A stretch of DNA of 49,338 bases, taken from an uncultured bacterium (GTDB lineage Bacteria; UBP6; UBA1177). Made by a program: the position numbers and the translations under genes. Position 1 is the stretch's first letter. Every line of letters starts with the position of its first letter. The DNA lies in assembly GCA_947305505.1 (NCBI GenBank), contig CAMZDX010000002.1, positions 1-49,338 of the forward strand, given 5' to 3'. Positions 3,551 through 20,615 of the stretch are shown piece after piece. The notes under the pieces are model-generated. The model did not search any database. It saw only the letters and a list, made by a program, of their open reading frames with translations, and was not told the origin of the DNA.

Positions 3551-3581
3551 TCTTAAAGTACCGATTCCTGCCTATTTCCGA
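3551..3581 (-). promoter_or_regulatory. Cassette bipartite motif, degenerate upstream half (TCGGAAATAG-N13-CTTTAAGA)
   Basis: Minus-strand reading. Same 13-nt spacing as the other copies. Upstream of the ATG at 3510. Confidence 0.4.
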
Positions 3582-3619
3582 AAATTTTAGAAAATTCATG
3601 TATTTTTTTGTCCCCGAAA

Positions 3620-4135
3620 CTAAGACAACCTTGCTTTTACATTGTATTCCAACATCTCAAGAGCGAACCTTAAGATCCACAAAATCACCACATACGCAAT
3701 GAGAGATATAGGCTCGAGCTTAAAAAGCCATGCTGTATAGAGATGGAGAACCACTGACAAAGGTACTGCAAAAATAAAATTCATGCCCGACAAATACACC
3801 GCAACCGCCAAAACAATGAAAATCCACGGCAATATGGTAGTGAAAAGATCCGAAGTAAGTTTGCAGACCGGCCACAGGACAAGCCACCATCCTTCAAGGC
3901 TGTCGCATGTAACATCGTACGAATCGGCATAAAGATGGAGAGCAGCAAACGCAGCATATGCGACTATAAATTTCCATTCAGGCCGCCTTATTCTAAACAA
4001 CTCCAGAATTAAATTTCCGCTGTTTTTCAACATAATATTCACGACATCTTGTCCGTCCATTTCATGTATTAACGTCTTCCCAGACCTCTTGTCTATTTTT
4101 GCTCTAAGAGTTTCCAAATCTCTTCTTCTATTCAT
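3620..4135 (-). CDS. Multi-pass membrane protein, family D copy 1
   Basis: LELFRIRRPEWKFIVAY matches LELLGARIPSWKYIISY in 6253..6609. Start moved to MNRRRDL (GAGAGG RBS). A partial CTTTATAAGTGTGTGAG motif lies upstream. Confidence 0.65.
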   Translation of the reverse strand: MNRRRDLETLRAKIDKRSGKTLIHEMDGQDVVNIMLKNSGNLILELFRIRRPEWKFIVAYAAFAALHLYADSYDVTCDSLEGWWLVLWPVCKLTSDLFTTILPWIFIVLAVAVYLSGMNFIFAVPLSVVLHLYTAWLFKLEPISLIAYVVILWILRFALEMLEYNVKARLS

Positions 4136-4207
4136 GGAAAGACCTCTCGAAAAGTTAAAAAACAACGCTCACACACTTATAAAGATGCAAATTTATCACA
4201 CTTTTAC

Positions 4208-4564
4208 CTACTTTCGGTTCATCAGTTTCTTAACGAAATCTATGCAAGTGTCACGCCCCTCAGCAAGATCGATCACTGTAGCCGCCAAAAGCAAACCTCC
4301 GCATACGAGGTTACCCAAAAGAATGAATACGGCTGACGCGGTTCCAATAATAACTGTCGGAAGCTTTCTCGCTATCCATGTACCGGGTTCGCCGGTTTCA
4401 TCATAGAGGATATCCGGCATAATGAAGCGGAAATATCTGAGATTTCTCGACATGATCAGCAAAATCGTGAATACAAACGCACTGAAAAAACCGCAAGTCG
4501 CTGCAAAAACCACAAAAGCCGTGATCTCGCTGATTTTGATTTTAGGCATTTTACTTACTAACAT
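4208..4564 (-). CDS. Small multi-pass membrane protein, family C copy 2
   Basis: Paralog of 3121..3510. Start moved to MLVSKMPK because GGAGGAG lies 5 nt upstream of that ATG; the ATG at 4597 has no RBS. Confidence 0.65.
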   Translation of the reverse strand: MLVSKMPKIKISEITAFVVFAATCGFFSAFVFTILLIMSRNLRYFRFIMPDILYDETGEPGTWIARKLPTVIIGTASAVFILLGNLVCGGLLLAATVIDLAEGRDTCIDFVKKLMNRK

Positions 4565-4608
4565 TTTCACTCCTCCGACATCTCTTTTGTCATCCATGTT
4601 TTATAAAA

Positions 4609-5214
4609 CTACTGAAATTCAACTTCGCCATCATGTGTTTCATGCCGCATAAGAACACCCCGTACCCGTTCTTCGATTCCTGCAATCTCTTCGGCAGCAC
4701 TGATCCCGTAAATCTCATCGTAGTGCATCGGATCTCTCAGATCGACCATGTCCCATATCTCGTAATAGGAAGCTTCTTCAAGGCGGTAGATCTCCTCTTC
4801 AATCGGTTTGTATGCCTCCATACTGATGACCTTATCCGCAACCGTATTGACTTTTGTTATTGTCTCAACAAGTTTGACCTTTCTCTGATCGCCGAGTCTC
4901 TGCCAGATGCATGATTTCTCACCTATGTACGGATAAAGATCGTACTTTTTAAAATTAAGAAGTTCTGCAGGTTTGATCTCATTCTTTCCGTTCATGACCA
5001 AAATCTTTCCGTCGACCCATTCGAGACGTACTGATTCCCTGTTTTCGTTGAGACCGAATGTTACTTTCTTTACGACAGCGTCTTTTCTTTTCATAGTTTT
5101 TCTCCATTTGTTCTCTGTTGTTAAATCCTGATTTTCCGAAACATCACTGATGTTGTTGCTGAAACTGTTCATTTTTTTCTCCTCTTTTTCTGTTGTCACA
5201 GCTTTTGTTGTCAT
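4609..5214 (-). CDS. Hypothetical soluble protein, family E copy 1 (near-identical core to 14235..14723)
   Basis: GGAGG RBS at 5214. An internal start MKRKDAVV at 5094 (GGAG RBS) corresponds to the start of copy 2, so the N-terminal 40 residues are uncertain. Confidence 0.65.
   Translation of the reverse strand: MTTKAVTTEKEEKKMNSFSNNISDVSENQDLTTENKWRKTMKRKDAVVKKVTFGLNENRESVRLEWVDGKILVMNGKNEIKPAELLNFKKYDLYPYIGEKSCIWQRLGDQRKVKLVETITKVNTVADKVISMEAYKPIEEEIYRLEEASYYEIWDMVDLRDPMHYDEIYGISAAEEIAGIEERVRGVLMRHETHDGEVEFQ
4665..4908. repeat. Near-identical dispersed repeat, copy 1 (partner 14278..14521)
   Basis: Hand alignment finds only 2 mismatches (4702, 4861) over 244 bp. The flanks are clearly more diverged. 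Confidence 0.85.
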
Positions 5215-5252
5215 GTTAAACCTCCAAAATTAAAAATTAACCAATCACGCTA

Positions 5253-5283
5253 TCTTAAAGTGCGCTTCATTCAGTTTTTCCGA
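5253..5283 (-). promoter_or_regulatory. Cassette bipartite motif (TCGGAAAAAC-N13-CTTTAAGA)
   Basis: Minus-strand reading, upstream of the ATG at 5214. Confidence 0.5.
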
Positions 5284-5287
5284 AAAT

Positions 5288-6148
5288 TCATGCACTTTTT
5301 TTGTTTTTTTCATCAAAATCACATGCCTGCAGAACTATTTTTCCGTATTCGGCATCGTCAGCAGGATCAAAAACTAAAAGGAATCCGCCATTGTGACAGA
5401 AAACCGGCTTTTCAGGTTCCGCCTTCGTGAAATCGATTTCTTTTCCCAAACCGGTTCTGTAGAGCGTGCGGCTTTCACTTCCGTCACCGTTCCAGCCGTA
5501 TGCGACTTCTATTCTGTTTTCGTTTATGACATCCCTGCTTGCCGCGTTGTAGGCCTGTATCGAGAAACCGGCTTTGAAAGGTGATGTTTCACACACAAAA
5601 ACTCTTACTCCGCCCCCGAGCATTTCAATATGCGAATTCGCCGCAATCCACTCTTTCACTTTTTTAATCTCATCAATCTCGGAAAGTCTTCTTCTGAAGC
5701 CGTCGGCAACAATATTCGCGATTTTAAGAGGCTCTCTTTCAAAGAGATTTACCATTGTAAACTCAGGAACTATCCACGGCGAAGAATTACCGAATTTCTG
5801 TTCAGCTGTCGGAATTCCGTAATTATCCTGCATTCTTACCCGTTCTATCAACGGAGCGTATTTTTCATCATGCAGCACCCACGGAGCGAAAGTTTTAGCG
5901 ACAAGAGTCAGAGCGCATTCGACTTTATCTGTGTTTTTAAACTGATGATGATCGAAAAAGCGCGATCCGTCGAACTTCATTCCGCAGTCAATAACAAAAT
6001 CGTTATCTACAGCCTCATTGATCCTTTTCGCATCTCTTATGATTTCAGTAAATTCAATATCAGGCTTCGATGCGATAAGAAGTCCGCACGCCCACATTTC
6101 ATCTGCGTGGGCCTTAAGGCCGTGAACAAAGATTCTGCCGCTTTTCAT
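5288..6148 (-). CDS. MYG1/UPF0160-family metal-dependent hydrolase
   Basis: HGLKAHADEMWACGLL and VIDCGMKFDGSRFFDHHQF match the MYG1 motifs H..FH.DEALAC.LL and VDVGG.YD....YDHHQ. Confidence 0.7.
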   Translation of the reverse strand: MKSGRIFVHGLKAHADEMWACGLLIASKPDIEFTEIIRDAKRINEAVDNDFVIDCGMKFDGSRFFDHHQFKNTDKVECALTLVAKTFAPWVLHDEKYAPLIERVRMQDNYGIPTAEQKFGNSSPWIVPEFTMVNLFEREPLKIANIVADGFRRRLSEIDEIKKVKEWIAANSHIEMLGGGVRVFVCETSPFKAGFSIQAYNAASRDVINENRIEVAYGWNGDGSESRTLYRTGLGKEIDFTKAEPEKPVFCHNGGFLLVFDPADDAEYGKIVLQACDFDEKNKKSA

Positions 6149-6157
6149 GACACACTC

Positions 6158-6241
6158 CTAAACAAGAAAGAAATAAATCAAAAAGTTAACGAGCAGAGAA
6201 ACAAGCGTGTCAAAAATCAAACTGATGATCCAAGTAGCCAT
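6158..6241 (-). CDS. 27-aa hydrophobic peptide MATWIISLIFDTLVSLLVNFLIYFFLV
   Basis: Not in the ORF track (too short). GGAGG 5 nt upstream of the ATG. Its TAG is part of the RBS of the MYG1-like gene. Confidence 0.4.
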   Translation of the reverse strand: MATWIISLIFDTLVSLLVNFLIYFFLV

Positions 6242-6252
6242 ATTTTCCTCCA

Positions 6253-6609
6253 TTAATTATTGTCCGATGTTGAAACAGCATGTAAAAATGTCCTGATAAG
6301 ACAAACTGCAAACATTGCAGATGCAAACTTTACCGGGCCGAAAAGCCAGTATATGTACACATAAAGAGCGGTCACCCCGATTATTCTTAACAGACTGTTG
6401 CCTGATGAATATGACCATATAGACAAAACAACAAATGCCACAAGGTATACTGTGGTAGAAAAAACGAAACTATCCCAAAAGAAAAAAAACATTGCGGCAA
6501 ATACAACCAAATATGAGATTATGTATTTCCAAGAAGGAATCCTTGCACCTAACAATTCAAGGAAAAGACTTCCGATGTTGCTCTCTGTGTTCTGGATCTC
6601 TTTTGTCAT
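6253..6609 (-). CDS. Multi-pass membrane protein, family D copy 2
   Basis: Shares the R.P.WK.I..Y segment with 3620..4135. GGAGG RBS. Confidence 0.65.
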   Translation of the reverse strand: MTKEIQNTESNIGSLFLELLGARIPSWKYIISYLVVFAAMFFFFWDSFVFSTTVYLVAFVVLSIWSYSSGNSLLRIIGVTALYVYIYWLFGPVKFASAMFAVCLIRTFLHAVSTSDNN

Positions 6610-6651
6610 AATAAACCTCCAAAAAAAGTTAAAAAACTCAAACTCACACTC

Positions 6652-6682
6652 TCTTAAAGCATCGGGTTTTCCGTTTTTCCGA
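6652..6682 (-). promoter_or_regulatory. Cassette bipartite motif (TCGGAAAAAC-N13-CTTTAAGA)
   Basis: Minus-strand reading, immediately downstream of the ssrA 3' end and upstream of the ATG at 6609. The flank is homologous to the flank of 19882..19912. Confidence 0.5.
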
Positions 6683-6708
6683 AAATTTCCGAAGAAAAGA
6701 GAAAAAAT

Positions 6709-7050
6709 TGGTGGAGGCGGCGGGAATCGAAACCGCGTCCAACCTGAGGAACAACGAAACTTCTACATGCTTAGCTGTCCGTTTTGATAAGTGCTTCGGC
6801 TCCCGGCAGCAGGATCCCCGCACTGTCTCGCATTAGGTTTCGCGGTTTCAGTCATGCGAAAAACTTTCACCGCTATCCCGCTATTAGACGCCCTGCTTCG
6901 CTGTCACGGGAAAACAAGCGAGAGGACGGGCCTTCAGTCGGCCAACGAGCTTTTTACGCTGCGTTTCTGGATTGCCGCTTTTTACGAGGCCAGCGGCACC
7001 TCGGCATGCGATAACGAGGTTCAGCCAGGCTGTCGAAACCTGGCGCCCCC
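6709..7050 (-). ncRNA. ssrA: tmRNA (transfer-messenger RNA)
   Basis: The 5' end is GGGGGCGCCAGGTTTCGACAGCC. The 3' end is GGACGCGGTTTCGATTCCCGCCGCCTCCACCA. Acceptor stem is 7 bp with G3-U70. PK1-like pairing UGCCGCU/AGCGGCA. 342 nt. Confidence 0.93.
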
Positions 7051-7076
7051 AATTCAAAAATCAATGAACGATACTT

Positions 7077-7107
7077 ATATAAAGCGGTGAAAGTCGGATT
7101 TTTCCGG
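7077..7107 (-). promoter_or_regulatory. Cassette-type bipartite motif upstream of ssrA (CCGGAAAAAT-N13-CTTTATAT)
   Basis: Same spacing as the cassette copies. The downstream half is closer to TATAAT. Confidence 0.5.
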
Positions 7108-7128
7108 TTTTTTGGAGAAAAAAATTGT

Positions 7129-8787
7129 TCAGCAGTTTTTAGCGGATCTATCGTTGGCTCTGCGTTTTGCGACCTCTCGTGTCTTCCCTTTTGTGAAATA
7201 ATCAAGATCTTCAAGATAACCCGATACACGGCGGATCCTTCTGATATTCTTCGAACCGCATACCGGGCAGTCGTCGAAAGTCCCTTTGTGCCCGCAGTCG
7301 CGGCATATATCCAGCGGGAAATTCATTCCGAAGTATGAGACTCCCTGAGCTGCGGCATAACCTACGAGATCTTCCAGAGCTTCGACATTTTCCATCGGAG
7401 CATCGTTGAATTCGACATACGCGATGCTGCCGCCGTTGCAAAGAGCGTGAAATTTTCCTTCAATACGCAGCTTGTCATAGAGAGAAATCCCCGAATCTAC
7501 TTCGACATGGAAAGAATTCGTGTAGAACTCTTTTTCGAGAACAGGGTGCTCGAACATTTTTTTGTCGGCCTCGGCGAAACGCCCGGAAATCAACTCTCCC
7601 GGAGTTGCCAGAAGCGAAAAGTTTAGTCCTGTCTCCCTGCGGAAGGAATCTGCACAGTTTCTGAGTTTTTTGACAATATCAAAACCGAGCTGTTCCGCAT
7701 TTTTCGAAAGATAGAGTTTTTCACCGGTCAGGATCTCGACAGTTTCGGAAATCCCGATAAAACCTAATGAAAGAGTTCCCTGTTTGACAAGTTCATCCAT
7801 ATTTGCGACTTCGTTCCAAAGGTGGTTTTCGAACACAAAACCGAGTTTTTGCGTCTTTTTAAGAGTCTCCATTCTGGAAAGCAGGATATCTTTGCATACA
7901 TGAGCCTTTTCTTCGAGCTTTTCCATAAAATCAACGACCGATCCCGACTGAAGGGCAATACGCGGAAGGTTTATCGAAACATAAGCGATGTTTCCGCGTC
8001 CGATGGTCTGCTCCGGTCCGTTGGAATTCTGGTATACTCTTGTACGGCATCCCATGATCCCCAGTTTTTCAGGGTCGCAGCCGCGGTTCGGTTCGCTGTC
8101 GAGAAGCAGATAGGTAGGTATCATCCTGTTTGCAGTGCAATGAAGAGCCTGCAGGAAAAGATCGTGATTCGGATCAGATGCATCGGCGTTCACACCTTTT
8201 TTCACTTTGAAAATGATGTTCGGGCGTTCATAGTGTATCGACTGCTCAAGATAAGCTTTGAGTATCGATTTCGTGATAAATCTCCCCCACTCCGATGTCG
8301 CAAGTCCGAGATTGAGCGATATATAGTAAGGTTCACGGCAGTATCTCGTGCGTGTCGTGTTGACCCAGTTCAAAAAAAGAGCCGCAAGATCGGTCATCGC
8401 ATCTCTGTTCGCTTCACTGAACGGCACATTGAGTTTTTCAAGAACATCCGCGATATCGATATCGAAATTGGCGAAACCGATCCCGCCCGTCTGGCAGACT
8501 GCAAGAGAAGAAATCAGCGATTCTATCTTTCCGAAGATCTCGGCAATCTTACTGAAATCATTAGTTGAAACGAACTTTTTGGCATCAAGGATATCCTGAA
8601 GCGCCGGTGTACAGCAGTTATAGACAAAGCGGTATCCTTCAAGATCATGAAGATGGATCTCGGCATTTCTGTGCATTTCGGCATATTCCGGCTTTACCAG
8701 ATTATTGAGAATAAAATTTTTCTCCTGCTTTACAGCCTCTTCATAAAGACCGCTTACGAAATTGTCTCTTGCAGCTGCATTTTCCAT
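7129..8787 (-). CDS. nrdD: Anaerobic ribonucleoside-triphosphate reductase (class III)
   Basis: C-terminal Zn ribbon CRDCGH..CPVCGS, followed by the glycyl-radical motif RRVSGYL. AGGAGG RBS. Confidence 0.9.
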   Translation of the reverse strand: MENAAARDNFVSGLYEEAVKQEKNFILNNLVKPEYAEMHRNAEIHLHDLEGYRFVYNCCTPALQDILDAKKFVSTNDFSKIAEIFGKIESLISSLAVCQTGGIGFANFDIDIADVLEKLNVPFSEANRDAMTDLAALFLNWVNTTRTRYCREPYYISLNLGLATSEWGRFITKSILKAYLEQSIHYERPNIIFKVKKGVNADASDPNHDLFLQALHCTANRMIPTYLLLDSEPNRGCDPEKLGIMGCRTRVYQNSNGPEQTIGRGNIAYVSINLPRIALQSGSVVDFMEKLEEKAHVCKDILLSRMETLKKTQKLGFVFENHLWNEVANMDELVKQGTLSLGFIGISETVEILTGEKLYLSKNAEQLGFDIVKKLRNCADSFRRETGLNFSLLATPGELISGRFAEADKKMFEHPVLEKEFYTNSFHVEVDSGISLYDKLRIEGKFHALCNGGSIAYVEFNDAPMENVEALEDLVGYAAAQGVSYFGMNFPLDICRDCGHKGTFDDCPVCGSKNIRRIRRVSGYLEDLDYFTKGKTREVAKRRANDRSAKNC

Positions 8788-8797
8788 TCGTTCCTCC

Positions 8798-9283
8798 TTA
8801 ATTGTGCAGTTTTATAAAACTCTGGTTTGTAGAACCGACATATGGCCTGACGCTCGTTTTTCTGTCGATCTGGAAATCACCGACCTTGATGTAGTCAATA
8901 TATTGAAGAAGTTCAGGATCGACATCTTCCATGCTGTTGCCGGTGTAAACAGCGATATCATAATCCTTTTCGTGAAGGATCTTGACCAGACTAATAAGCC
9001 CGTCGTACTGAAGCAGCGGTTCTCCGCCAGAGATCGTGACTCTGCGGAGCGGAGTATTTTCGTCTATGACCGAAACAAGCTCACCGACACTCATCTGATG
9101 TCCTACTTTCGTATTCCATGTCCCTGAATTGTGGCAGCCGGGGCAGTGACGGTCGCAACCTTGAAAAAATATAACGTTTCTTACTCCCGGCCCGTCGCAG
9201 GTAGAACCGCGGAGATCCAGATTGTTGATAAGAAGCATCTGCTCCCCGCTCTCACAAACACTGTTCACGTGCATAGACTCCAT
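8798..9283 (-). CDS. nrdG: Anaerobic ribonucleotide reductase activating protein (radical SAM)
   Basis: CDRHCPGCHN cluster motif. Start moved to MESMHVN because the GGAGG lies inside the longer ORF start. Confidence 0.85.
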   Translation of the reverse strand: MESMHVNSVCESGEQMLLINNLDLRGSTCDGPGVRNVIFFQGCDRHCPGCHNSGTWNTKVGHQMSVGELVSVIDENTPLRRVTISGGEPLLQYDGLISLVKILHEKDYDIAVYTGNSMEDVDPELLQYIDYIKVGDFQIDRKTSVRPYVGSTNQSFIKLHN

Positions 9284-9310
9284 CGTTTCCTCCAAAAAAC
9301 GCCATCAATA

Positions 9311-9341
9311 CTCTAAAGCTGAAAATTCCGCTGAATTCCGA
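9311..9341 (-). promoter_or_regulatory. Degenerate cassette-type motif upstream of nrdG (TCGGAATTCA-N13-CTTTAGAG)
   Basis: Correct 13-nt spacing, but both halves are weaker. Confidence 0.3.
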
Positions 9342-10015
9342 GTTCTCCGGTAAATTTTTCCGATTTGCGGAAAAGCGGTCTCGGCTCAGGCAGCAGATTT
9401 GAAACCAGCTTCTCCGACAAAGTTAATAAACAAACACATGCACGCTTACCGCACCGCGTTCCGAGGCTCTTCCTTCACAGACGCACACAGAGCCGCAGCG
9501 AAAGCGCGCATCACCTTCGGCAACAGGCGAAACTGCACAGTTTCCCTCTTGCGAAGGCTGAAAACTTCTCCGGCCGGCATCACCTCCTTTACTTGGAAGC
9601 GCCGAACATGGACTATGTGGTTACTTGGTAGATTCTCCCTCTACTCTGAATTCATTCTTAAGAAACATTCCTTGTTTCCGCAGAGTTACTAAACTTGCCG
9701 ATTTCGTAGAATCTTTGATGATGTGTGTGGAACTTTCTGACCCTTTTAATGATTTGTAAAACGATAAACTTTTAGGCGCTGTTTCGAGCCCCATCGACCC
9801 GCAACAGTTATACTGCGCAATTTCAGAAACTAGACCGCCCAGCCTCGATTTTATGTAGTATTTCTTAAACATGGGCGGCACGCTACCCGGTTTCAGACGA
9901 ATGTCAAGCGAATTTTCAAGATTTTTTAAAAAAGTTGATAACAGACTGTAATTATTATATTTTTTCAACTAGAAAACCGTGTTTTTTTCAAAAACGGAAT
10001 ATAAATTTCGCTGAT

Positions 10016-11086: not shown

Positions 11087-11106
11087 AAAAACCTCCACAC
11101 CACTAT

Positions 11107-11131
11107 TTAAGGTGGTAACATTACCACTTAA
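11107..11131. promoter_or_regulatory. Operator-like palindrome 1 (GTGGTAA-CA-TTACCAC)
   Basis: Perfect 7+7 inverted repeat at 11112..11127, overlapping the putative fic -10 element (11130..11135) at its edge and covering the start-site region. Confidence 0.5.
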
Positions 11132-11158
11132 AATAGCATTTCTTTGTTATGCATGCAA
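11130..11158 (-). promoter_or_regulatory. Putative sigma-70 promoter of fic (TTGCAT-N17-TATTTT)
   Basis: Read on the minus strand. Lies between the two operator-like palindromes. Confidence 0.4.
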
Positions 11159-11182
11159 GATTTTTTGTTAAAAACCACCAAA

Positions 11183-11206
11183 TAAGGTGGTAACATTACC
11201 ACTAAA
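11183..11206. promoter_or_regulatory. Operator-like palindrome 2 (GTGGTAA-CA-TTACCAC)
   Basis: Identical 16-bp core at 11187..11202. On the RNA it also overlaps an ACCACC/GGTGGT hairpin followed by TTTTT. Confidence 0.5.
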
Positions 11207-11248
11207 AACGCCGCTTTTGATTGTATATGCAGATTTTCTGATGAAAAA

Positions 11249-11787: not shown

Positions 11788-11818
11788 TCTTAAAGCGTCT
11801 GACTTTCAGTTTTTCCGG
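11788..11818 (-). promoter_or_regulatory. Cassette bipartite motif (CCGGAAAAAC-N13-CTTTAAGA)
   Basis: Minus-strand reading. Overlaps the last codons of 11790..12749. Confidence 0.5.
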
Positions 11819-12790: not shown

Positions 12791-12821
12791 AGTTAAAGTG
12801 TCTGATTTTCAGTTTTTCCGG
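12791..12821 (-). promoter_or_regulatory. Cassette bipartite motif (CCGGAAAAAC-N13-CTTTAACT)
   Basis: Minus-strand reading, downstream of mini-tmRNA 1 and upstream of the ATG at 12749. Confidence 0.5.
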
Positions 12822-12976: not shown

Positions 12977-13006
12977 ATATAAAGGGATAAATTCAGATTT
13001 TTCCGG
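12977..13006 (-). promoter_or_regulatory. Cassette-type motif upstream of mini-tmRNA 1 (CCGGAAAAA-N13-CTTTATAT)
   Basis: The CTTTATAT box ends 16 nt before the predicted RNA 5' end. Confidence 0.45.
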
Positions 13007-13057
13007 ATTTCAGATTCTCTGTTTTGATCCGATATTTTGATGATTATCCCGACGGAA

Positions 13058-14225: not shown

Positions 14226-14234
14226 GTTTACCTC

Positions 14235-14768: not shown

Positions 14769-15377
14769 TCAATATCCTATCTGAGTATAATTGCTACTTT
14801 CTGGAAGGGCGAGCTGCCGGTCAAACCAGTCCAAAAGTTTCGGAACCGTATCGTGTTCATACTGATCCATGACCCGGCTGATGATAGATTCCCGTTCGAA
14901 GCCGTTGACCATTTTTGTTACCGCGTAGGCTCCGGCTCCGGCAAGAATAACTGAAAGACCAAATGTCGCAGCACCCGTGCTTATACCTATTGCCGCAGCG
15001 ATAGAATCAGCTAAAGAGACAGCCACCGTCTTTTTGAATATCCACCAACCTGTCGTTTTTGTCGCAACAGTAACCGTAGCCAATGTTCCGCCTGCCATCC
15101 AACCGCCGATACCACCTCCGACCTTGCCTGCGACACCGCCCCACGCAACAGGAGCCTTCATTGCCGTGAAAGAGGTTTTCGAGTTGCACTGTCCCAGTTC
15201 CAGAGCATATCGTGAAGCTACAACTTTGAGGTGATCGTTGAACGTGTTGAGACAATTCTGCAGCACAGCCCTGTTCTTGACATCGTTCTGTGAAAGAAGC
15301 TTCCTGAGCTCGTAGCCTTCGTTTGCAAGATCCATTTTAAATCTGTTTCTCATCATGTTTGCGTTCGTGCTTGTCAT
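14769..15377 (-). CDS. Gly/Ala-zipper membrane protein, family G (long form)
   Basis: ATKTTGWWIFKKTVAVS core. N- and C-terminal segments shared with 15419..16024. GGAGG RBS. Confidence 0.7.
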   Translation of the reverse strand: MTSTNANMMRNRFKMDLANEGYELRKLLSQNDVKNRAVLQNCLNTFNDHLKVVASRYALELGQCNSKTSFTAMKAPVAWGGVAGKVGGGIGGWMAGGTLATVTVATKTTGWWIFKKTVAVSLADSIAAAIGISTGAATFGLSVILAGAGAYAVTKMVNGFERESIISRVMDQYEHDTVPKLLDWFDRQLALPESSNYTQIGY

Positions 15378-15416: not shown

Positions 15417-15447
15417 TGTTAAAGTGTCGCTTTTCCGTTTTTTCCGA
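15417..15447 (-). promoter_or_regulatory. Cassette bipartite motif (TCGGAAAAAA-N13-CTTTAACA)
   Basis: Minus-strand reading, upstream of the ATG at 15377. Confidence 0.5.
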
Positions 15448-16024
15448 AAATTTTCACAAAATTTTCATTATTTTTTTCTCCGCATGCCGGACACTCCCTC
15501 TTTGAACCGCAGATTTCGTTATCAAACCATTTGAGAAGCTGCGGAACGAGTTTGTTTTCATAGGAGCGCATCAATGTGGAGAGTATCATTCTGCGTTTGA
15601 AGTGTTTTTTGACTTTCGACAGCGCGAACATCCCTATTCCGGTAAGTGCAAGGGAGACCGATATCGAAACTGCTGCCGAATCTATAGGGGTATATGATAC
15701 AGCAAGATCTGACAACGCAAAAAGCAGTGTCGATTCCACCACTTCTGAAATGGCGCCGTTCGGATAGGGCCACTCTTTGAGTAAAACTTCCGAAGGAATA
15801 GAGAACTCATGCTCAGGTATTTTGAGATCAGCAGTTCCGGCTTCGGCAGCATATTCACGGCACAGACTTTCGATACGTTTAGAGGAATCGTCTAGAATAT
15901 TTTGCGCTTCTTCGGCATTTTTAACCACATCGGTCCGAGAAAGGAGTTTTCTAAGTTTGCATCCTTCGTCTGCAAGAGCCGTGCTGAATCCGTTTTTCAT
16001 TGTATCTGCACTAACGTATCTCAT
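15419..16024 (-). CDS. Membrane protein, family G-related
   Basis: LADEGCKLRKLLS and VPQLLKWFD match LANEGYELRKLLS and VPKLLDWFD in 14769..15377. Start moved to MRYVSADT (GGAGG RBS). Confidence 0.65.
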   Translation of the reverse strand: MRYVSADTMKNGFSTALADEGCKLRKLLSRTDVVKNAEEAQNILDDSSKRIESLCREYAAEAGTADLKIPEHEFSIPSEVLLKEWPYPNGAISEVVESTLLFALSDLAVSYTPIDSAAVSISVSLALTGIGMFALSKVKKHFKRRMILSTLMRSYENKLVPQLLKWFDNEICGSKRECPACGEKNNENFVKIFGKNGKATL

Positions 16025-16067
16025 ACTGACCTCCAAAAACAACATTGATAAGACTCAAGCCACGCTC

Positions 16068-16098
16068 TCTTAAAGAGGTAAAAACCCGGTTTTTCCGG
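16068..16098 (-). promoter_or_regulatory. Cassette bipartite motif (CCGGAAAAAC-N13-CTTTAAGA)
   Basis: Minus-strand reading, upstream of the ATG at 16024. Confidence 0.5.
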
Positions 16099-16150: not shown

Positions 16151-16531
16151 TCACTGCTCCTTTGAATGTATGCCGTTTATCTTGGAACGGAAAAAACCGA
16201 TAAAGTCGAATCTGTTCCTCATAAGATCCATTACCGCAGCGACACAAAGGATAAGCGCTGCAAAGCTGTGACCGATAATGAAGAAGAGAAGCGCGATGAA
16301 TCCCATGATACCTACAGGAAGCAGATTCTCAGCCCAGTAAGCGGGATAACCGCCGGCATCACAAAACGCTTTCGGCAAAACAAAGCGGAATTTGCTGAGG
16401 TGCGCCGTCAGAAAAACAGCTAATGCGAACACAAGAGCCGTAAAGAATCCCGATACGAATGTCATAACTGCAAATGTCGTTACCGCACTGATCGTTCTGG
16501 CCTTTCTCATATTAGCGTCTGCGTTTGTCAT
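16151..16531 (-). CDS. Small multi-pass membrane protein, family C copy 3
   Basis: FVSGFFTALVF...KFRFVLPKAF...AAVMDLMRN parallels the other family C copies. Start moved to MTNADAN (GGAGG RBS). Confidence 0.7.
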   Translation of the reverse strand: MTNADANMRKARTISAVTTFAVMTFVSGFFTALVFALAVFLTAHLSKFRFVLPKAFCDAGGYPAYWAENLLPVGIMGFIALLFFIIGHSFAALILCVAAVMDLMRNRFDFIGFFRSKINGIHSKEQ

Positions 16532-16570
16532 AATAACCTCCAAAAAATTAAAAATTGTTCAACAACACTT

Positions 16571-16601
16571 TCTTAAAGCGGCACTTCTTTGGTTTTTCCG
16601 A
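16571..16601 (-). promoter_or_regulatory. Cassette bipartite motif (TCGGAAAAAC-N13-CTTTAAGA)
   Basis: Minus-strand reading, upstream of the ATG at 16531. Confidence 0.5.
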
Positions 16602-16630: not shown

Positions 16631-17875
16631 TCAGAACGCATTGCGAAGCCCCTGTTCGTTCGGATAGAAGATGCTGTTATCAATGAAACCTACAGGTTCT
16701 CTCGAAAGCCCTGACAGCGCCGTTTCCGCATCGAACCGGACATCGTGGAAAGAGGATCTCGCTATTTTGGAAAGTTCACTCTGCTCGAACATTTCTCCGG
16801 GAAGTGAAAGTACGCTCGGATTTGAAAGGGCACTCGGTTTTGAAAGTTCACTCGGCGTTGAAAATATACTGGGGGACGTGAGAAGATCAGTTCCGCATTT
16901 AAAGAAGCCGTTTCCCTTTCCGTTCGGATCTCCGACTGCAAAAAACGGCTCGTTGCTTTCAGGAAAAACAGTGTCGAGAAGCTTTTTTGCGACAAAAAAC
17001 GTTGCGACACCTGCCGCGGCTGATGCCAGAAATGTACCGGTCGCAAAATTGGTGAAAGTTGCCGCAGCGGCCGACAGACTTGAACTTGCCGATGTTTTGA
17101 CCGCTTCGCCGAGAGTTCCTCCTCTCAAAAGCGAGAGCCCACCGCCCAGAATTCCGCCTGTGAGCATGCTTTGGAAAAGTACGGGATAGAAAACACTGCC
17201 GGGAACACCGAGAACGGGTATGATCGGATCTGTTACAGCCCTGTAAAGCGTAACGGCACTTGTGAAAAACTCCCCTATCGAAGCTCCGACAACGAGAACA
17301 TTCGGAAACATAAGCCCTGTCGCAAGATCGAAGCAACCTAAAGCAAAATGAAGACCGGCAGCGGAAAAAGTGTGAGGAATGGCATCTGCAAAGACCATAA
17401 GAACATCGACCCCGCTGCACAAGAACGCAACTCCTCCGTTAAGGACCTGGGCAACATTCAAAGAGCACAGATTGGAAATGTAGGTCTCACTAAAACCTGT
17501 TTTAGCCAACGCTTCTATCATGAAGCGCGGAACTACCGGAACACCTTTTACAGAAAGAAAATCCATTCCGAGATGGTGAAGAAGATGCCCTAACTTCAGA
17601 TCGGGAGCTTTGATTACGCTCAACCCGTCTTCTATAAGGTGGTGTCCGTGAAAAATACGGTGATTTGGCCCCTTGAGAGCGTCTATCCACGCGCCGGTGG
17701 GACCGGGGAGATGATGCGCAACGTGATATTCGGTAAGACCTCTTTGAATGGAAAGCGGAAGCGCCAGCGGTTTCCCGAGACCTCGGAAACCGAAACCGGC
17801 TGCACTCCTGAAAACATCAGTACTTCCGTGAATTATAGCCCCTGCATTATAGAGTGCCGTAGTGTCAAACATCAT
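16631..17875 (-). CDS. Hypothetical 414-aa His-rich / Gly-Ala-rich membrane protein
   Basis: Single long ORF with a GGAGG RBS (either of the two adjacent ATGs). His-rich N-terminal third, several Gly/Ala-rich hydrophobic segments, and a PS.LS. repeat near the C-terminus. Confidence 0.65.
   Translation of the reverse strand: MMFDTTALYNAGAIIHGSTDVFRSAAGFGFRGLGKPLALPLSIQRGLTEYHVAHHLPGPTGAWIDALKGPNHRIFHGHHLIEDGLSVIKAPDLKLGHLLHHLGMDFLSVKGVPVVPRFMIEALAKTGFSETYISNLCSLNVAQVLNGGVAFLCSGVDVLMVFADAIPHTFSAAGLHFALGCFDLATGLMFPNVLVVGASIGEFFTSAVTLYRAVTDPIIPVLGVPGSVFYPVLFQSMLTGGILGGGLSLLRGGTLGEAVKTSASSSLSAAAATFTNFATGTFLASAAAGVATFFVAKKLLDTVFPESNEPFFAVGDPNGKGNGFFKCGTDLLTSPSIFSTPSELSKPSALSNPSVLSLPGEMFEQSELSKIARSSFHDVRFDAETALSGLSREPVGFIDNSIFYPNEQGLRNAF
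16806..16877. repeat. 18-bp in-frame tandem repeat, about 4 units (gaaagNNcNctcggNNtt)
   Basis: Units start at 16806, 16824, 16842 and 16860. They encode the PS.LS. hexapeptide repeat of the 414-aa protein. Confidence 0.7.
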
Positions 17876-17902: not shown

Positions 17903-17933
17903 AGTTAAAGTGTCTGATTTTCAGTTTTTCCGG
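17903..17933 (-). promoter_or_regulatory. Cassette bipartite motif (CCGGAAAAAC-N13-CTTTAACT)
   Basis: Identical over the motif to the copy at 12791..12821. Upstream of the ATG at 17875. Confidence 0.5.
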
Positions 17934-17944: not shown

Positions 17945-18913
17945 TTACACGCTTTGCACAACCACAGATTCATCAGTTTCTGGCAGGATCACCTGTTTCA
18001 GCATTTCTACGACATCTGAATTTCCAATAAAATCGGTGCGCATAAAGATCGTATTGCTGCTGGAGACAATTATAGCCTCGGACTTTATTTTGCGCAGATC
18101 ATAGTTTTTCTTACTAAACACCATAAGATCCCCGCACCTGCCCTCAAGATCCCTGCAAAAAATAAACTCCACATTCTTTTTGGCGCAAATATCTTTTATA
18201 TATTTACTCTCAAGAAACTTGAACGCATCCTGATCACACACCAGAAGTGCATGATCTTTTACGACTTTAAGGACGCGGCAGTGTTCTTCGAAATATTTTG
18301 CGGCTTCATTCTCCAACTCACCGCCCTCTTTAGATTTCTTGAATAATTTATACCATTTATACTTACAATCTATTACAAACATTTTAAATCTTGCAATCAA
18401 ACCTGGTTGAAAAGGCTGCATCTTTGCCGTTATCGGATTTATTTCTTCATTCGGATCGCAACACAGATTTGCCTCATGAATGAGCTCTTCTTCGCTTACA
18501 GGTTCTTTGAATGAGACTCCGAGAGTACTCTGAGAAAACTCTATGATCCTTTCCGATTTTGCACGTAACGGGTCGATCCCTTTCTGATAAGCATCTCCGA
18601 CCGGCATTATGGAGACTATTGACGGAGTGTCCCAATAAAAAAGAAGCGAAACACGATCCTTTTCCGCAGCTTCGTACATCGCAGAAAACCCCGGTCCTCC
18701 GGCTTTTCCATCAGGAGTGTATATCTTGAGTTCATAGAGAAGCGGGAACGGTCCGTCAGCCTTCAGCATTTTGAAACCGTTTTTAAGCGTTATCACTTCA
18801 GTGTGTTTTGCCACCCACTTCTTTGCTTTATCCAGACGCCATTTGTTAAGATTGAATCTGAAAAAATAAGCAAGAAATATCGTTACGCAGTCCATGATCA
18901 TCTGAAGCATCAT
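17945..18913 (-). CDS. Hypothetical 322-aa protein, family F copy 2
   Basis: Distant paralog of 11790..12749 (shared AKKWV..H.E.I segment and a second NEAAKYFEEH segment). AGGAGG RBS. Confidence 0.65.
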   Translation of the reverse strand: MMLQMIMDCVTIFLAYFFRFNLNKWRLDKAKKWVAKHTEVITLKNGFKMLKADGPFPLLYELKIYTPDGKAGGPGFSAMYEAAEKDRVSLLFYWDTPSIVSIMPVGDAYQKGIDPLRAKSERIIEFSQSTLGVSFKEPVSEEELIHEANLCCDPNEEINPITAKMQPFQPGLIARFKMFVIDCKYKWYKLFKKSKEGGELENEAAKYFEEHCRVLKVVKDHALLVCDQDAFKFLESKYIKDICAKKNVEFIFCRDLEGRCGDLMVFSKKNYDLRKIKSEAIIVSSSNTIFMRTDFIGNSDVVEMLKQVILPETDESVVVQSV

Positions 18914-18953: not shown

Positions 18954-18984
18954 TTTTAAAGCGTCAAACTTTCAGTTTTTCCGG
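18954..18984 (-). promoter_or_regulatory. Cassette bipartite motif (CCGGAAAAAC-N13-CTTTAAAA)
   Basis: Minus-strand reading, upstream of the ATG at 18913. Confidence 0.5.
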
Positions 18985-19145: not shown

Positions 19146-19175
19146 AACAACTCCTTAAAACAATATTCCCTAAGA

Positions 19176-19838
19176 TCAGGCTGCCGTTTTATCCCTGTTT
19201 TTTTCTATCGGCAGCAGAGACACTATCTGATCAAATTCAGAATCTTTATAGTTTTGATAAACAGTTTTTCCACCGACTTCGACACGGAATTTCATCTTCG
19301 CATCCAGGAAAGGTCTGATCTGTTCTATTCTTTTACAAAGTTCTTCTATTACTTTATCTTTCTTTTGTTCCATATTCTTCACATGCTCCTGTTTTTTACT
19401 TTCAATAGTCCTCTCGATTTCCAGATCTTTAAGTTTTCTCCATCCAGTCTTAAACACTCTCTTTTTAGTAATATCGTGGCTGAGTATCTCAGGTTCTGGC
19501 AAATTGATGACATATACATCTCCATCTTTGCGTGTATTCGCAGCATCTATTTTGAATCCGTATTTGATACAGCCGTTACACAGGATCGTTCCTTTAGCTT
19601 TAATCCATCTCCCGATTTCCAAGTCAAAATCATCGCTATAGTTGTTTTCATAAAACGCAGCTTCTAAGATCGGTTTTAAGGCCTCGACTATATAAGAGTT
19701 TGAGACAGTTATTCCGGAATCCTTGAGATATCTGTTCAAAAGAGACTTCAGAAAAACAAAGACTGCAGCAAAAGATGTAAGAACAATGATCAATGTAAAG
19801 AAACCTTCTATAAGTTTTGAAATGATAACTTCTGACAT
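19176..19838 (-). CDS. DUF4230-like membrane-anchored protein (family B, copy 3)
   Basis: N-terminal TM helix. CIKYGFKIDAAN...PEPEILSHDI pattern. AGGAGG RBS. Confidence 0.6.
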   Translation of the reverse strand: MSEVIISKLIEGFFTLIIVLTSFAAVFVFLKSLLNRYLKDSGITVSNSYIVEALKPILEAAFYENNYSDDFDLEIGRWIKAKGTILCNGCIKYGFKIDAANTRKDGDVYVINLPEPEILSHDITKKRVFKTGWRKLKDLEIERTIESKKQEHVKNMEQKKDKVIEELCKRIEQIRPFLDAKMKFRVEVGGKTVYQNYKDSEFDQIVSLLPIEKNRDKTAA

Positions 19839-19881
19839 GATTTACCTCCTAAAAAACATTAATAAAACTCAAACCACACTC

Positions 19882-19912
19882 TCTTAAAGCGTCGGATTTT
19901 CCGTTTTTCCGA
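19882..19912 (-). promoter_or_regulatory. Cassette bipartite motif (TCGGAAAAAC-N13-CTTTAAGA)
   Basis: Minus-strand reading, immediately downstream of mini-tmRNA 2. Flank homologous to the ssrA downstream flank. Confidence 0.5.
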
Positions 19913-19938
19913 AAAATTCCGAAAAAAAGAGAAAAAAC

Positions 19939-20051
19939 TGGTGGAGACGGCGGGAATCGAACCCGCGTCCTGAACGCCGGGGCCTAAGCCCGATCCTTCG
20001 CCGGCCGGAACCGGTTCAGGTTTAATGCCCAGTCAAAACCATGTCATCCCC
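19939..20051 (-). ncRNA. tmRNA-derived tRNA-like-domain-only RNA (mini-tmRNA 2), 113 nt
   Basis: Differs from copy 1 by 5 substitutions and one 1-nt indel. None of these falls in the acceptor stem or T-arm. The hairpin CGGGC-UUAU-GCCCG becomes GGGC-UUAG-GCCC. Confidence 0.65.
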
Positions 20052-20094
20052 ATAATTAATCGTCAGCTGCCCTTTTTATCCTCCTCGCAACACG

Positions 20095-20541
20095 TCATTT
20101 TTTAGCATCTTTCAGCATACTTATGATCACGTCTAAAGGTGTGCCGGGAATAAAGATTGCACAGGCAGGAAGCGCTGTCCGGCAGCACTTCCCTATCATT
20201 TTTTCCATATTATATTTTTCAGAGTCATACCCCGGCTTCCACCATTCGCAGCTTACAGCATAGCAGCCGTACTTGGTATAGTTTCCCACGATCTCCAACT
20301 TGGGATTGCTTTTTCTTCGCTGTGTCGCATAGTTAAGAAAATCGTTTATATCACAGTACCACGGAAACTTCTTGGTGCACATCAGAGCCTCACACTCTTC
20401 CGAGACGACTACCTTTCTCACAATATCCGGGTCATTCAGCATCTTCTTTCTCAATCTCGGTTTGATTGCAAAATAGATGATTGCCGCAAGAATCCCCGTA
20501 GACGCCGCACTCATCAAAGCATTCAACAAAATGTCGTTCAT
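20095..20541 (-). CDS. Hypothetical 148-aa Cys-rich protein with N-terminal TM helix
   Basis: AGGAGA RBS with a cassette motif upstream. The stop lies 43 nt before mini-tmRNA 2. Confidence 0.6.
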   Translation of the reverse strand: MNDILLNALMSAASTGILAAIIYFAIKPRLRKKMLNDPDIVRKVVVSEECEALMCTKKFPWYCDINDFLNYATQRRKSNPKLEIVGNYTKYGCYAVSCEWWKPGYDSEKYNMEKMIGKCCRTALPACAIFIPGTPLDVIISMLKDAKK

Positions 20542-20583
20542 TTTTCTCTCCTAAAAAACGTTAATAAAAAAACATTCACGCCT

Positions 20584-20615
20584 TCTTAAAGCGGTGAAGT
20601 TTCGTTTTTTTCCGG
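20584..20615 (-). promoter_or_regulatory. Cassette bipartite motif (CCGGAAAAAAA-N13-CTTTAAGA)
   Basis: Minus-strand reading, upstream of the ATG at 20541. Confidence 0.5.

What the first reader, a model, noticed from the sequence alone, without database searches (positions are those of the whole stretch)
3551..20615. Fifteen copies of a fixed-spacing bipartite motif YCGGAAAAA-N14-CTTTAAGA define a putative regulon covering the cassette genes, ssrA and mini-tmRNA 1
Seen: I located 15 minus-strand copies. Their plus-strand start coordinates are 3551, 5253, 6652, 7077, 9311, 11788, 12791, 12977, 15417, 16068, 16571, 17903, 18954, 19882 and 20584.

In 14 of them, exactly 13 nt separate the 10-mer YCGGAAAAAC from CTTTAAGA-like. 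The copy at 12977 is off by one. The copies at 3551 and 9311 are degenerate.

Each copy sits a few tens of nt upstream of a strong GGAGG RBS, or of an RNA 5' end. The 5' UTRs fall into three sequence subtypes:
- GTTAATTTTTAATTTT
- GAGTTTTATTAATG
- GGTTTTGGTTGATT

Core genes in the same window show ordinary TTGnnn-N16/17-TATAAT promoters instead: rpmB at 35042..35069, the HAD gene at 48397..48424, csx1 at 29889..29916 and fic at 11130..11158.

Inference: the downstream half (TAAGAN / TATATA) could be a weak -10 element. The upstream half is unlike TTGACA. This suggests an alternative sigma factor or an activator site controlling the whole accessory array.

One speculative candidate encoded nearby is the sigma-like protein at 33284..34207. 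Against that idea, I see no copy of the motif upstream of its own operon.
Basis: partly seen in the sequence, partly recalled or inferred. Interest (0 to 1): 0.7.

Follow-up and report, generated by a model that had tools for sequence, protein, structure and literature searches.

The report
Lineage-specific non-sigma-70 promoter module, reused many times

Summary
All 15 copies are at the stated coordinates on the minus strand. I found a 16th at 33268-33294. A relaxed pattern gives 16 hits where shuffles predict 0.3.

The conserved core is CGGAA-N17-CTTTA, not CTTTAAGA. It also has an A-tract at -44..-40, CG at -17/-16 and RGnGT at -6..-2. Spacing is 17 in 40 of 43 instances. The module lies 35-51 nt before start codons, or 24-34 nt before tmRNA and mini-tmRNA 5' ends. 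It always points the same way as the gene.

The flanks are unrelated, no RNA structure is predicted, and there are no terminal inverted repeats. No sigma-70-like promoter sits in these gaps, whereas core genes have canonical ones.

The module recurs in related metagenomic contigs and in UBP6 bacterium UBA1177. It is conserved before nrdG across relatives with 68-97% NrdD identity. So this is a lineage-specific promoter class, not an accessory-only regulon. An ECF-like alternative sigma is the best guess; an activator acting with sigma-A is the main rival.

The proposed "sigma-like" ORF 33284-34207 shows no sigma features. It belongs to a rare four-gene module with a CARF-domain gene, found upstream of type III-B cmr operons in relatives. 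That module contains one motif copy. The regulator remains unidentified.

The parts
3554..3580 (-). Promoter copy (CGGAA-N17-CTTTA) before 129-aa membrane protein gene 3121-3510 and the DUF4230/LRAT genes after it
   Evidence: C of CTTTA is 48 nt from the ATG
5256..5282 (-). Promoter copy before gene 4609-5214
   Evidence: 46 nt to the ATG
6655..6681 (-). Promoter copy just after the tmRNA 3' end, before gene 6253-6609 and the MYG1-like gene 5288-6148
7080..7106 (-). Promoter copy before full-length tmRNA (6709-7050). CTTTA lies 34 nt before the mature 5' end
9314..9340 (-). Promoter copy before nrdG (8798-9295) and nrdD (7129-8787). Extra CGGAA-like boxes occur at about 10-nt phasing. Orthologous copy in seven related loci
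11791..11817 (-). Promoter copy before small ORFs 11568-11756 and 11249-11662. It overlaps the last codons of ORF 11790-12749
12794..12820 (-). Promoter copy after mini-tmRNA 1, before gene 11790-12749
12980..13005 (-). Promoter copy (spacing 16) before mini-tmRNA 1 (12849-12960). CTTTA lies 24 nt before the RNA 5' end
15420..15446 (-). Promoter copy before the operon 14769-15377, 14235-14723, 13782-14225, LRAT 13058-13711
16071..16097 (-). Promoter copy before gene 15419-16045
16574..16600 (-). Promoter copy before gene 16151-16543
17906..17932 (-). Promoter copy before gene 16631-17875
18957..18983 (-). Promoter copy before gene 17945-18913
19885..19911 (-). Promoter copy after mini-tmRNA 2, before DUF4230 gene 19176-19838
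20587..20614 (-). Promoter copy (spacing 18) before gene 20095-20541, which is followed by mini-tmRNA 2 (19939-20051)
33268..33294 (-). 16th copy. Its -35 box overlaps the last codons of ORF 33284-34207. It lies 48 nt upstream of ORF 32052-33236, which is followed by CARF-domain gene 30712-32058
   Evidence: same position in homologous modules L227 and L229
6709..7050 (-). tmRNA gene driven by the 7084 copy
   Evidence: Rfam RF00023, 151 bits
12849..12960 (-). Mini-tmRNA 1 (tRNA-like domain only) driven by the 12984 copy
   Evidence: Rfam RF00023, 70 bits

Best explanation
Each copy is a transcription promoter of a lineage-specific class, distinct from the organism's sigma-70-type promoters.

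**Shown.** Numbering the A of CTTTA as -11, the conserved blocks are:
- an A-tract at -44..-40;
- YCGGAAAAAC at -38..-29;
- CGCTTTA at -17..-11;
- RGnGT at -6..-2.

This layout matches how RNA polymerase holoenzyme contacts a promoter: UP-like, -35, extended -10/-10 and discriminator regions.

**Inferred.**
- Transcription would start about 10-12 nt after the C of CTTTA. That gives 20-36 nt leaders for protein genes, and 9-20 nt leaders on tmRNA and mini-tmRNA that RNase P would remove.
- The -35 is GGAA-type, and the -10 keeps T-12/A-11 but not T-7. The most likely reader is therefore an alternative, ECF-like sigma factor encoded outside the DNA available here. Compare GGAAa-N16-CTT with the ECF patterns GGAAC-N16-CGT and GTAA-N16-CGT.
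- The roughly 45-nt module has been reused in front of many non-homologous genes at one variable locus. That locus comprises nrdGD, ssrA, DUF4230, LRAT, small membrane proteins and type III CRISPR-associated genes. This places them under common control.
For: **Statistics and anatomy.**
- Enrichment over shuffles.
- Spacing is 17 nt in 40 of 43 instances, with the C of CTTTA 35-51 nt from the start codon.
- The logo has four blocks.
- All copies are co-oriented with the downstream gene or RNA.

**No other promoter candidate.** Sigma-70-like sites in 3-21 kb number 32 against 28 expected, and none lies in these gaps. Core genes do carry canonical TTGnnn-N16/17-TATAAT sites.

**Not a segmental duplication.** Flanking coding and upstream sequences are unrelated at the DNA level, while the boxes are invariant and the spacer varies.

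**Not an RNA element or transposon.**
- RNAalifold energy is 0.0 for the aligned modules, and leader z-scores average about 0.
- Rfam finds only the three tmRNA matches in the window.
- No terminal inverted repeats flank the modules.

**Comparative evidence.**
- Arrays occur in L164 (10 copies), L104 and L225 (6 copies); single copies occur in L147 and L205/L034, the last being UBP6 bacterium UBA1177.
- The nrdG promoter keeps CGGAA-N17-CTTTA/CTTAT in relatives with 68-97% NrdD identity.
- A mini-tmRNA in L219 is preceded by CCGGAAAAAT-N13-CTTAC.

**Precedents.**
- tmRNA (ssrA) belongs to the ECF SigR regulon (PMC4921905).
Against: - There are no transcription start data.
- No sigma or anti-sigma gene occurs in the window or in any related locus fetched (Pfam lists).
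- The ECF hallmark CGT in the -10 is absent; this motif has CTT.
- Degenerate CGGAA/GAAA boxes are phased at about 10 nt (-47, -37, -27). They fit a DNA-binding activator or intrinsic curvature as well as a sigma.
- ssrA and nrdDG are genes one expects to be expressed constitutively.
- The sample of related DNA is biased. It was retrieved through the motif itself or through NrdD, so genome-wide distribution is unknown.
Confidence: 0.5

Rival explanations
1. These are promoters read by the housekeeping sigma-A, but they depend on a class II activator. The activator, for example a response-regulator-like protein, would bind direct CGGAA/GAAA repeats that overlap and replace the -35 element.
For: - Three phased boxes lie about 10 nt apart at -47, -37 and -27.
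- The nrdG promoter has three to four clear CGGAA boxes.
- L227 and L229 have TTGGAA/TTCGGAA repeats at 10-11 nt spacing.
- T-12 and A-11 are invariant, as in sigma-A -10 elements.
Against: - T-7, the other key sigma-A -10 position, is not conserved, whereas the organism's core promoters have full TATAAT.
- The upstream and downstream boxes are weak (information 0.3-0.9 bit).
- No DNA-binding regulator was found next to the arrays. The only hint is a weak HTH_22 match in ORF 34218-34637 (E = 0.004, below the cut-off).
Confidence: 0.25
2. The regulator is encoded by the adjacent type III CRISPR-associated four-gene module (34218-34637, 33284-34207, 32052-33236, CARF gene 30712-32058). The promoters would then be the output of cyclic-oligoadenylate signalling, in analogy to CalpL-CalpT-CalpS.
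For: - In relatives the module sits directly upstream of type III-B cmr operons.
- One motif copy lies inside the module at the same place in the window, L227 and L229.
- L229-L231 carry a strong copy just upstream of the module.
- The motif-rich arrays are next to type III loci in this lineage.
- There is a precedent for a CRISPR-released sigma factor (bioRxiv 10.1101/2024.05.08.593097; PMC12751052).
Against: - No sigma, HTH (above cut-off), protease or SAVED domain was detected in the module.
- The TCGGAA of the internal copy also encodes a conserved C-terminal Ser-Glu of the 307-aa protein family, which is kept in distant homologues. Its conservation is therefore ambiguous.
- ssrA and nrdDG would become dependent on infection signalling.
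- UBA1177 and L164 carry motif copies, but no such module is visible in the DNA held for them.
Confidence: 0.08
3. The repeats are not promoters. They could instead be operator or nucleoid-protein sites (for example CodY-like), cassette-boundary recombination sites, or remnants of a mobile element.
For: - The TTTTCGGAAAA subtype resembles the CodY box AATTTTCWGAAAATT.
- The modules mark the boundaries of shuffled cassettes.
- Promoter-like repeats can be spread by mobile elements (PMC3575422).
Against: - Only 5 of 16 copies match the CodY box, and only at 3 mismatches.
- The conserved part is asymmetric and bipartite with fixed spacing.
- There are no terminal inverted repeats and no integrase or transposase nearby.
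- Strict co-orientation and a fixed distance to the RBS or RNA 5' ends are not expected for recombination sites.
Confidence: 0.07

Closest known systems
ECF sigma-dependent promoters, especially the DdvS regulon of Myxococcus xanthus (GTAA-N16-CGT; PMC6061681, PMC11506125)
   Same: - Both are bipartite motifs with rigid spacing and a GGAA/GTAA-type -35 element.
- Both occur as several copies spread across one variable or defence locus that includes type III-B CRISPR-Cas genes.
- Both are distinct from sigma-A promoters.
   Different: - The -10 is CTTTA, not CGT.
- No sigma/anti-sigma pair lies next to the locus in any DNA examined.
- The targets include ssrA, mini-tmRNAs and nrdGD.
- The copy number per locus is much higher: 15 in 17 kb.
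SigR (ECF) regulon of Streptomyces coelicolor. The consensus GGAAT-N18-GTT is from memory; ssrA membership is from PMC4921905
   Same: It has a GGAA-type -35 and a T-rich -10 triplet at similar spacing, and tmRNA is a regulon member.
   Different: The phylum is unrelated. No thiol-stress genes were seen among the targets, and no SigR/RsrA homologues were identified.
Putative mobile promoters / promoter reuse (Matus-Garcia, Nijveen and van Passel 2012; PMC3575422)
   Same: Highly similar upstream regions sit in front of non-paralogous genes within one genome. One variant is shared with a genome of different G+C content (UBA1177).
   Different: Most pairs are only 40-70% identical over 60 nt, with conservation confined to the functional boxes. 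This looks like long-term selection on a promoter consensus, plus some recent copying, rather than recent mobilisation of an element.
CalpL-CalpT-CalpS (type III CRISPR, cA4-activated protease releasing an ECF-like sigma)
   Same: A multi-gene ancillary module next to a type III system contains a cyclic-oligoadenylate sensor-type (CARF) domain. A dedicated promoter class is present nearby.
   Different: No SAVED-Lon protease, anti-sigma or sigma domain is detectable. The link between the module and the promoters is purely positional.

Membership tests
Sigma-70 / sigma-A housekeeping promoter | -35 hexamer resembling TTGACA about 17 nt upstream of the -10 | tested here: not met
   The -35 region is an invariant CGGAAAAAC. 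The consensus scan finds no sigma-70-like site in any of these gaps.
Sigma-70 / sigma-A housekeeping promoter | -10 hexamer TATAAT with conserved A-11 and T-7 | tested here: not met
   T-12 is 43/43 and A-11 is 41/43, but position -7 is A22/G12/T7/C2. Core genes of the same window have TATAAT or TATTAT.
ECF (group 4) sigma promoter | -35 element containing GGAAC/AAC | tested here: inconclusive
   GGAA is invariant at -36..-33. AAC is present at -31..-29 (C in 26/43), but it is offset from the usual position.
ECF (group 4) sigma promoter | -10 element with CGT about 16 nt after the -35 AAC | tested here: not met
   The -10 is C-15 T-14 T-13 T-12 A-11. CG is at -17/-16, followed by C, not T. The GGAAa-N16-CTT geometry is ECF-like only.
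ECF (group 4) sigma promoter | Cognate sigma/anti-sigma operon, usually autoregulated by the same motif | not testable with these tools
   No Sigma70_r2/r4 protein occurs in the window or in L217-L231. Whole genomes of the lineage could not be retrieved.
Sigma-54 promoter | TGGCAC-N5-TTGCW (-24/-12) | tested here: not met
   13 matches at up to 2 mismatches against 18 expected, and none at the motif copies.
CodY box regulon | 15-nt palindrome AATTTTCWGAAAATT | tested here: not met
   Only 5 of 16 copies match, and only at 3 mismatches. The conserved half is asymmetric.
Putative mobile promoters (PMP) | At least 80% identity over at least 50 nt upstream of genes whose coding regions are not paralogous | tested here: inconclusive
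   The downstream coding regions are unrelated. Only a few pairs reach the threshold: 6659/19889 at 93%, and 12798/17910 at 94% over 50 nt. Most pairs are 40-70% identical.
MITE / Correia-like promoter-carrying element | Terminal inverted repeats and target-site duplication | tested here: not met
   No inverted repeats flank the modules.
Structured RNA element (riboswitch, leader, processing site) | Conserved secondary structure or covariation | tested here: not met
   The RNAalifold consensus is unstructured (0.0 kcal/mol). Leader z-scores average +0.12. Rfam finds nothing except tmRNA.
Sigma-70-family protein (claim for ORF 33284-34207) | Sigma region 2 and region 4 domains | tested here: not met
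   - No Pfam hit at E up to 10, and no NCBIfam hit.
- No hit for 10 relatives.
- No PDB hit by sequence or profile.
- The AlphaFold model (pLDDT 69.6) gives no sigma factor match by Foldseek at E up to 10.
- The conserved motifs DFIEKKDG, EG..A.NF.LF.PW and FEERKPEI are not sigma motifs.
CalpL-CalpT-CalpS | SAVED-Lon protease plus anti-sigma plus ECF-like sigma next to a type III CRISPR system | tested here: not met
   The type III association is met, and a CARF domain is present in ORF 30712-32058. No Lon, SAVED or sigma domain was found.

The most novel reading that the evidence does not exclude
The CGGAA-N17-CTTTA promoters are the transcriptional output of the adjacent, very rare four-gene module with a CARF-domain gene that precedes type III-B cmr operons in this lineage. 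A cyclic-oligoadenylate signal would then switch on a whole locus through a new kind of RNAP specificity factor unrelated to known sigma factors. That locus holds the cmr operon, dNTP supply genes (nrdGD, dNK), tmRNA, tRNA-like mini-tmRNAs and a shuffled set of membrane and LRAT/DUF4230 cassettes.
Probability: 0.07. Interest if true: 0.85.

Novelty: new member of a known kind. Interest (0 to 1): 0.45.

Why it matters
- It defines a clean, testable promoter consensus for an uncultured rumen-associated lineage. The lineage includes a UBP6 genome, and nothing is known about its transcription.
- It shows a single promoter module being reused in front of about 15 unrelated genes within 17 kb. In relatives that lack the repeats, much the same gene cluster is packed tightly, like a single operon, so this is a natural case of promoter propagation.
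- It links ssrA, tRNA-like mini-tmRNAs, anaerobic ribonucleotide reductase and type III CRISPR-associated genes in one putative regulon. That suggests a coordinated stress or anti-phage programme.
- If the cognate factor were found, the consensus would give a direct handle on that programme. It would also provide a portable expression signal for this lineage.

Tried and rejected
1. **Public collections.** I scanned for CGGAAAAAC-N13-CTTTAAGA.
   - Genome contigs gave 101 loci, all chance single hits except UBA1177.
   - Viral contigs gave 5 chance hits, so the motif is not phage-associated.
   - Metagenome contigs gave 110 loci, of which only L164, L104, L147 and L205 are real.
2. **Source genome.** Exact-protein look-up of window proteins, meant to extend the genome, found nothing on record.
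3. **Taxonomy.** Cluster-member names for NrdD relatives carried no names.
4. **The 'sigma-like' ORF.**
   - Family libraries and PDB sequence or profile searches found nothing.
   - Two AlphaFold runs gave pLDDT 46 with 4 sequences and 69.6 with 11.
   - Two Foldseek searches found nothing significant. The only sigma entry was SigI1, at E = 8.3 and probability 0.03, from the poor model.
5. **Alternative motif classes.** CodY box and sigma-54 readings were rejected.
6. **RNA-structure reading.** Rejected.
7. **Mobile-element reading.** Rejected for lack of inverted repeats.
8. **Recent segmental duplication.** Rejected because the flanks are unrelated.
9. **Cassette functions.** Pfam on the cassette proteins of L164 and L225 gave almost no annotation, so regulon function could not be inferred from content.

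Full report
**1. Observation**

- The octamer CGGAAAAA occurs 34 times, against 8.0 +/- 2.9 in dinucleotide shuffles.
- A matrix built from the copies finds them again, plus one new site at 33272. The best hit in 20 shuffled windows scored 13.6, whereas most real copies scored 20-56.
- The relaxed pattern CGGAAWWWH-N12-14-CTTWH gives 16 hits, all on the minus strand, against 0.32 expected. Two of these hits (43024, 3220) lie inside genes and are probably chance.
- An unsupervised repeat finder independently recovers the copies as 40-73 nt direct-repeat families.

**2. Anatomy**

I aligned 43 instances from the window and related DNA on the C of CTTTA. Numbering the A of CTTTA as -11, the conserved positions are:
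- A-44..A-40 (A-43 in 42/43);
- Y-38 C-37 G-36 G-35 A-34 A-33 A-32 A-31 a-30 c-29;
- C-17 G-16 C-15 T-14 T-13 T-12 A-11;
- R-6 G-5 n G-3 T-2.

Other features:
- CGGAA-to-CTTTA spacing is 17 nt in 40 of 43 instances. It is 16 at 12984 and 18 at 20591 and at L225 4775.
- The spacer is variable but carries a weak GAAA box at -27..-23. The A-tract region looks like a third, degenerate box at -47..-40. The A-tracts are therefore phased at about 10 nt.
- The C of CTTTA lies 35-51 nt upstream of the start codon. It lies 34 nt upstream of the mature tmRNA 5' end and 24 nt upstream of the mini-tmRNA 1 5' end.
- Mini-tmRNA 2 has no copy and follows the gene driven by the 20591 copy.
- Several copies overlap the last codons of the preceding ORF. 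The cassettes are therefore not insulated by terminators.
They resemble the rpmB leader, so they are a general translation-initiation feature and not part of the motif.

**3. What it is not**
- Sigma-70-like sites in 3-21 kb are at chance level (32 against 28.2), and none lies in the cassette gaps.
- The core genes rpmB, HAD, the TPR gene and rimP, plus fic and csx1, carry canonical TTGnnn-N16-18-TAnnnT sites just upstream.
- Sigma-54 and CodY-box readings fail.
- The aligned modules have no consensus RNA structure (0.0 kcal/mol), and the leaders are not unusually stable.
- Rfam finds only the three tmRNA-family matches.
- No terminal inverted repeats flank the modules.
- The 300 nt of coding sequence downstream, and the 300 nt upstream, are unrelated between copies. 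The exceptions are the tmRNA-like genes and one paralogous pair. Within the module, overall identity is only 40-70%, yet the boxes are invariant.
- This is the signature of selection on protein-DNA contacts, not of recent segmental duplication.

**4. Relatives**

An exact-pattern scan of 185,579 species genomes returned one real relative, UBP6 bacterium UBA1177 (L034). There the module precedes an LRAT gene. The metagenome scan returned four real loci:
- L164, with 10 copies in 14.5 kb;
- L104, with 4 copies plus a mini-tmRNA;
- L147;
- L205.

Viral contigs gave nothing real.

NrdD homologues define a clade at 61-97% identity, clearly separated from the next hits at about 52%. I fetched their contigs.
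- L225 (85% NrdD identity) has six strong copies.
- L217, L221, L222 and L224 (80-82% identity) keep the same genes: dNK, nrdG, nrdD, a 127-aa gene, a MYG1-like gene, DUF4230 genes and, in L224, LRAT. Here they form a tightly packed cluster. It keeps one clear CGGAA-N17-CTTTA copy, before nrdG, plus weaker variants such as TTTTCGGAATTTC-N13-CTTAC after nrdD.
- L219 (68% identity, 52% G+C) still has CCGGAAAAAT-N13-CTTAT before nrdG, and CCGGAAAAAT-N13-CTTAC before an 81-nt mini-tmRNA.

So the two boxes are footprinted at an orthologous promoter across the clade. In some members the module has been multiplied, so that almost every gene of the locus has its own copy. The targets are not only accessory genes: nrdGD, ssrA and dNK are included.

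**5.

ORF 33284-34207 shows no sigma features.
- It has no hit in Pfam (even at E = 10), NCBIfam, PADLOC or PDB sequences.
- Its family is tiny: three close clusters, and nine proteins at E up to 0.001 among 1.84 billion representatives.
- None of the family members has a sigma domain.
- The conserved motifs are DFIEKKDG, EG..A.NF.LF.PW and FEERKPEI.
- An AlphaFold model from 11 sequences (pLDDT 69.6) gives no Foldseek match below E = 1.8, and no sigma factor.

The context is nevertheless informative. The ORF is the second gene of a conserved four-gene module: a 139-161 aa gene, a 307-385 aa gene, a 390-394 aa gene, and a 443-452 aa gene carrying a CARF domain. In L227-L231 this module lies directly upstream of type III-B cmr operons. 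In the window the cmr genes are reduced to a fragment, a four-repeat CRISPR array (about 30243-30469) and csx1.

The 16th motif copy lies between genes 2 and 3 of this module, and the same holds in L227 and L229. L229-L231 also carry a strong copy just upstream of the module.

One caveat applies. The TCGGAA of the internal copy also encodes a C-terminal Ser-Glu that is conserved even in distant family members. Its conservation is therefore not clean evidence.

**6. Mechanism**

The layout is that of an RNAP holoenzyme promoter: a UP-like A-tract, a -35 block, an extended -10/-10 block, a discriminator block, rigid 17-nt spacing and a fixed distance to the RBS or RNA 5' end. I rate this promoter reading at about 0.85.

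Which factor reads it is inferred, not shown.
- A GGAA-type -35, together with a -10 that keeps T-12/A-11 but not T-7, differs from the organism's own sigma-A promoters. It resembles ECF geometry: GGAAa-N16-CTT compared with GGAAC-N16-CGT.
- DdvS promoters are GTAA-N16-CGT. Four of them run a defence island that contains a type III-B system (PMC6061681).
- ssrA is a member of the ECF SigR regulon (PMC4921905).
- Against a strict ECF assignment, there is no CGT and no sigma/anti-sigma pair in any DNA examined.
- The phased CGGAA/GAAA boxes keep a sigma-A-plus-activator model alive.
- A CRISPR-linked factor encoded by the four-gene module (the one containing the CARF-domain gene) is possible but unsupported by any domain evidence. 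CalpS shows that such logic exists.

**7. Novelty and verdict**

No known motif or family matches. The phenomenon belongs to known kinds: an alternative promoter class or regulon, and promoter reuse (PMC3575422). It is a well-defined new member in an unstudied lineage. It has an unusual target set (tmRNA, tRNA-like mini-tmRNAs, nrdGD, CRISPR-associated genes) and a striking copy density. Interest is moderate at 0.45.

Noticed in passing
window 12849-12960 and 19939-20051 (minus); L104 5196-5307; L219 5818-5898: These are 'mini-tmRNAs' of 81-113 nt. They match both ends of the Rfam tmRNA model (56.7-73 bits) and so consist of the tRNA-like domain only, without the mRNA part. They sit beside a full-length tmRNA (6709-7050). 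ARAGORN detects none of the three in the window, not even the full tmRNA. Mini-tmRNA 1 has its own promoter copy. Mini-tmRNA 2 sits 43 nt after a 148-aa gene, and L104 has the same arrangement.
   Followed up: partly
window 30712-34637 (minus); L227 9519-13676; L229 9519-13709: A conserved four-gene module: a 139-161 aa gene, a 307-385 aa gene, a 390-394 aa gene and a 443-452 aa gene with a CARF domain. In relatives it lies directly upstream of type III-B cmr operons. The second protein belongs to a very rare family (9 hits in 1.84 billion representatives) with no recognisable domain. This is probably an undescribed type III ancillary system.
   Followed up: partly
window about 30243-30469 (minus) and 30470-30720: A remnant CRISPR array of four 35-nt repeats (GTTTAATGTAGGCAGAACCCGGGCTCTGGTTGAAA). 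It is preceded by a short fragment that looks like the start of a RAMP/cmr gene, and csx1 (28581-29834) follows. Relatives have a full cmr operon at this position.
   Followed up: partly
window 11099-11133 and 11174-11208: Two 35-nt direct repeats, each containing the palindrome GGTGGTAACATTACCAC, bracket the sigma-70-like promoter of the fic gene (10016-11098). This looks like a pair of operator sites for autoregulation.
   Followed up: no
window 1-9300 compared with L217, L221, L224: In relatives the locus backbone is tightly packed, like a single operon: dNK, nrdG, nrdD, a 127-aa gene, MYG1-like, DUF4230, a 76-aa gene, a 116-aa gene, two DUF4230 genes, LRAT and ABC. In the window, tmRNA and extra cassettes interrupt the backbone. 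dNK is lost, and only its leader remnant survives near 9400-9460.
   Followed up: partly
window 4609-4908 and 14232-14531: A 300-nt direct repeat at 96% identity lies inside two paralogous genes (4609-5214 and 14235-14723). It shows recent exchange between cassettes, in contrast to the otherwise diverged paralogue families.
   Followed up: no
window 11252-11276 and 13009-13033: The same 25-nt sequence (96% identity) lies immediately upstream of the mini-tmRNA 1 promoter and upstream of the fic region. It may be a scar left by cassette insertion or recombination.
   Followed up: no
window 4150-4200 (minus): A possible 17th, degenerate copy: AGGTAAAAG...CATCTTTATAAGTGTGTG followed by the usual U-rich leader, before ORF 3620-4165. 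The -10 and discriminator blocks are intact, but the -35 block and the spacing are off.
   Followed up: no
window 20661-28537 (plus): Three large plus-strand genes, two with STAND/AAA ATPase domains and one without any hit, form a defence-island-like block between the cassette array and csx1. L104 has a 43%-identical homologue of the first gene in the same relative position.
   Followed up: no
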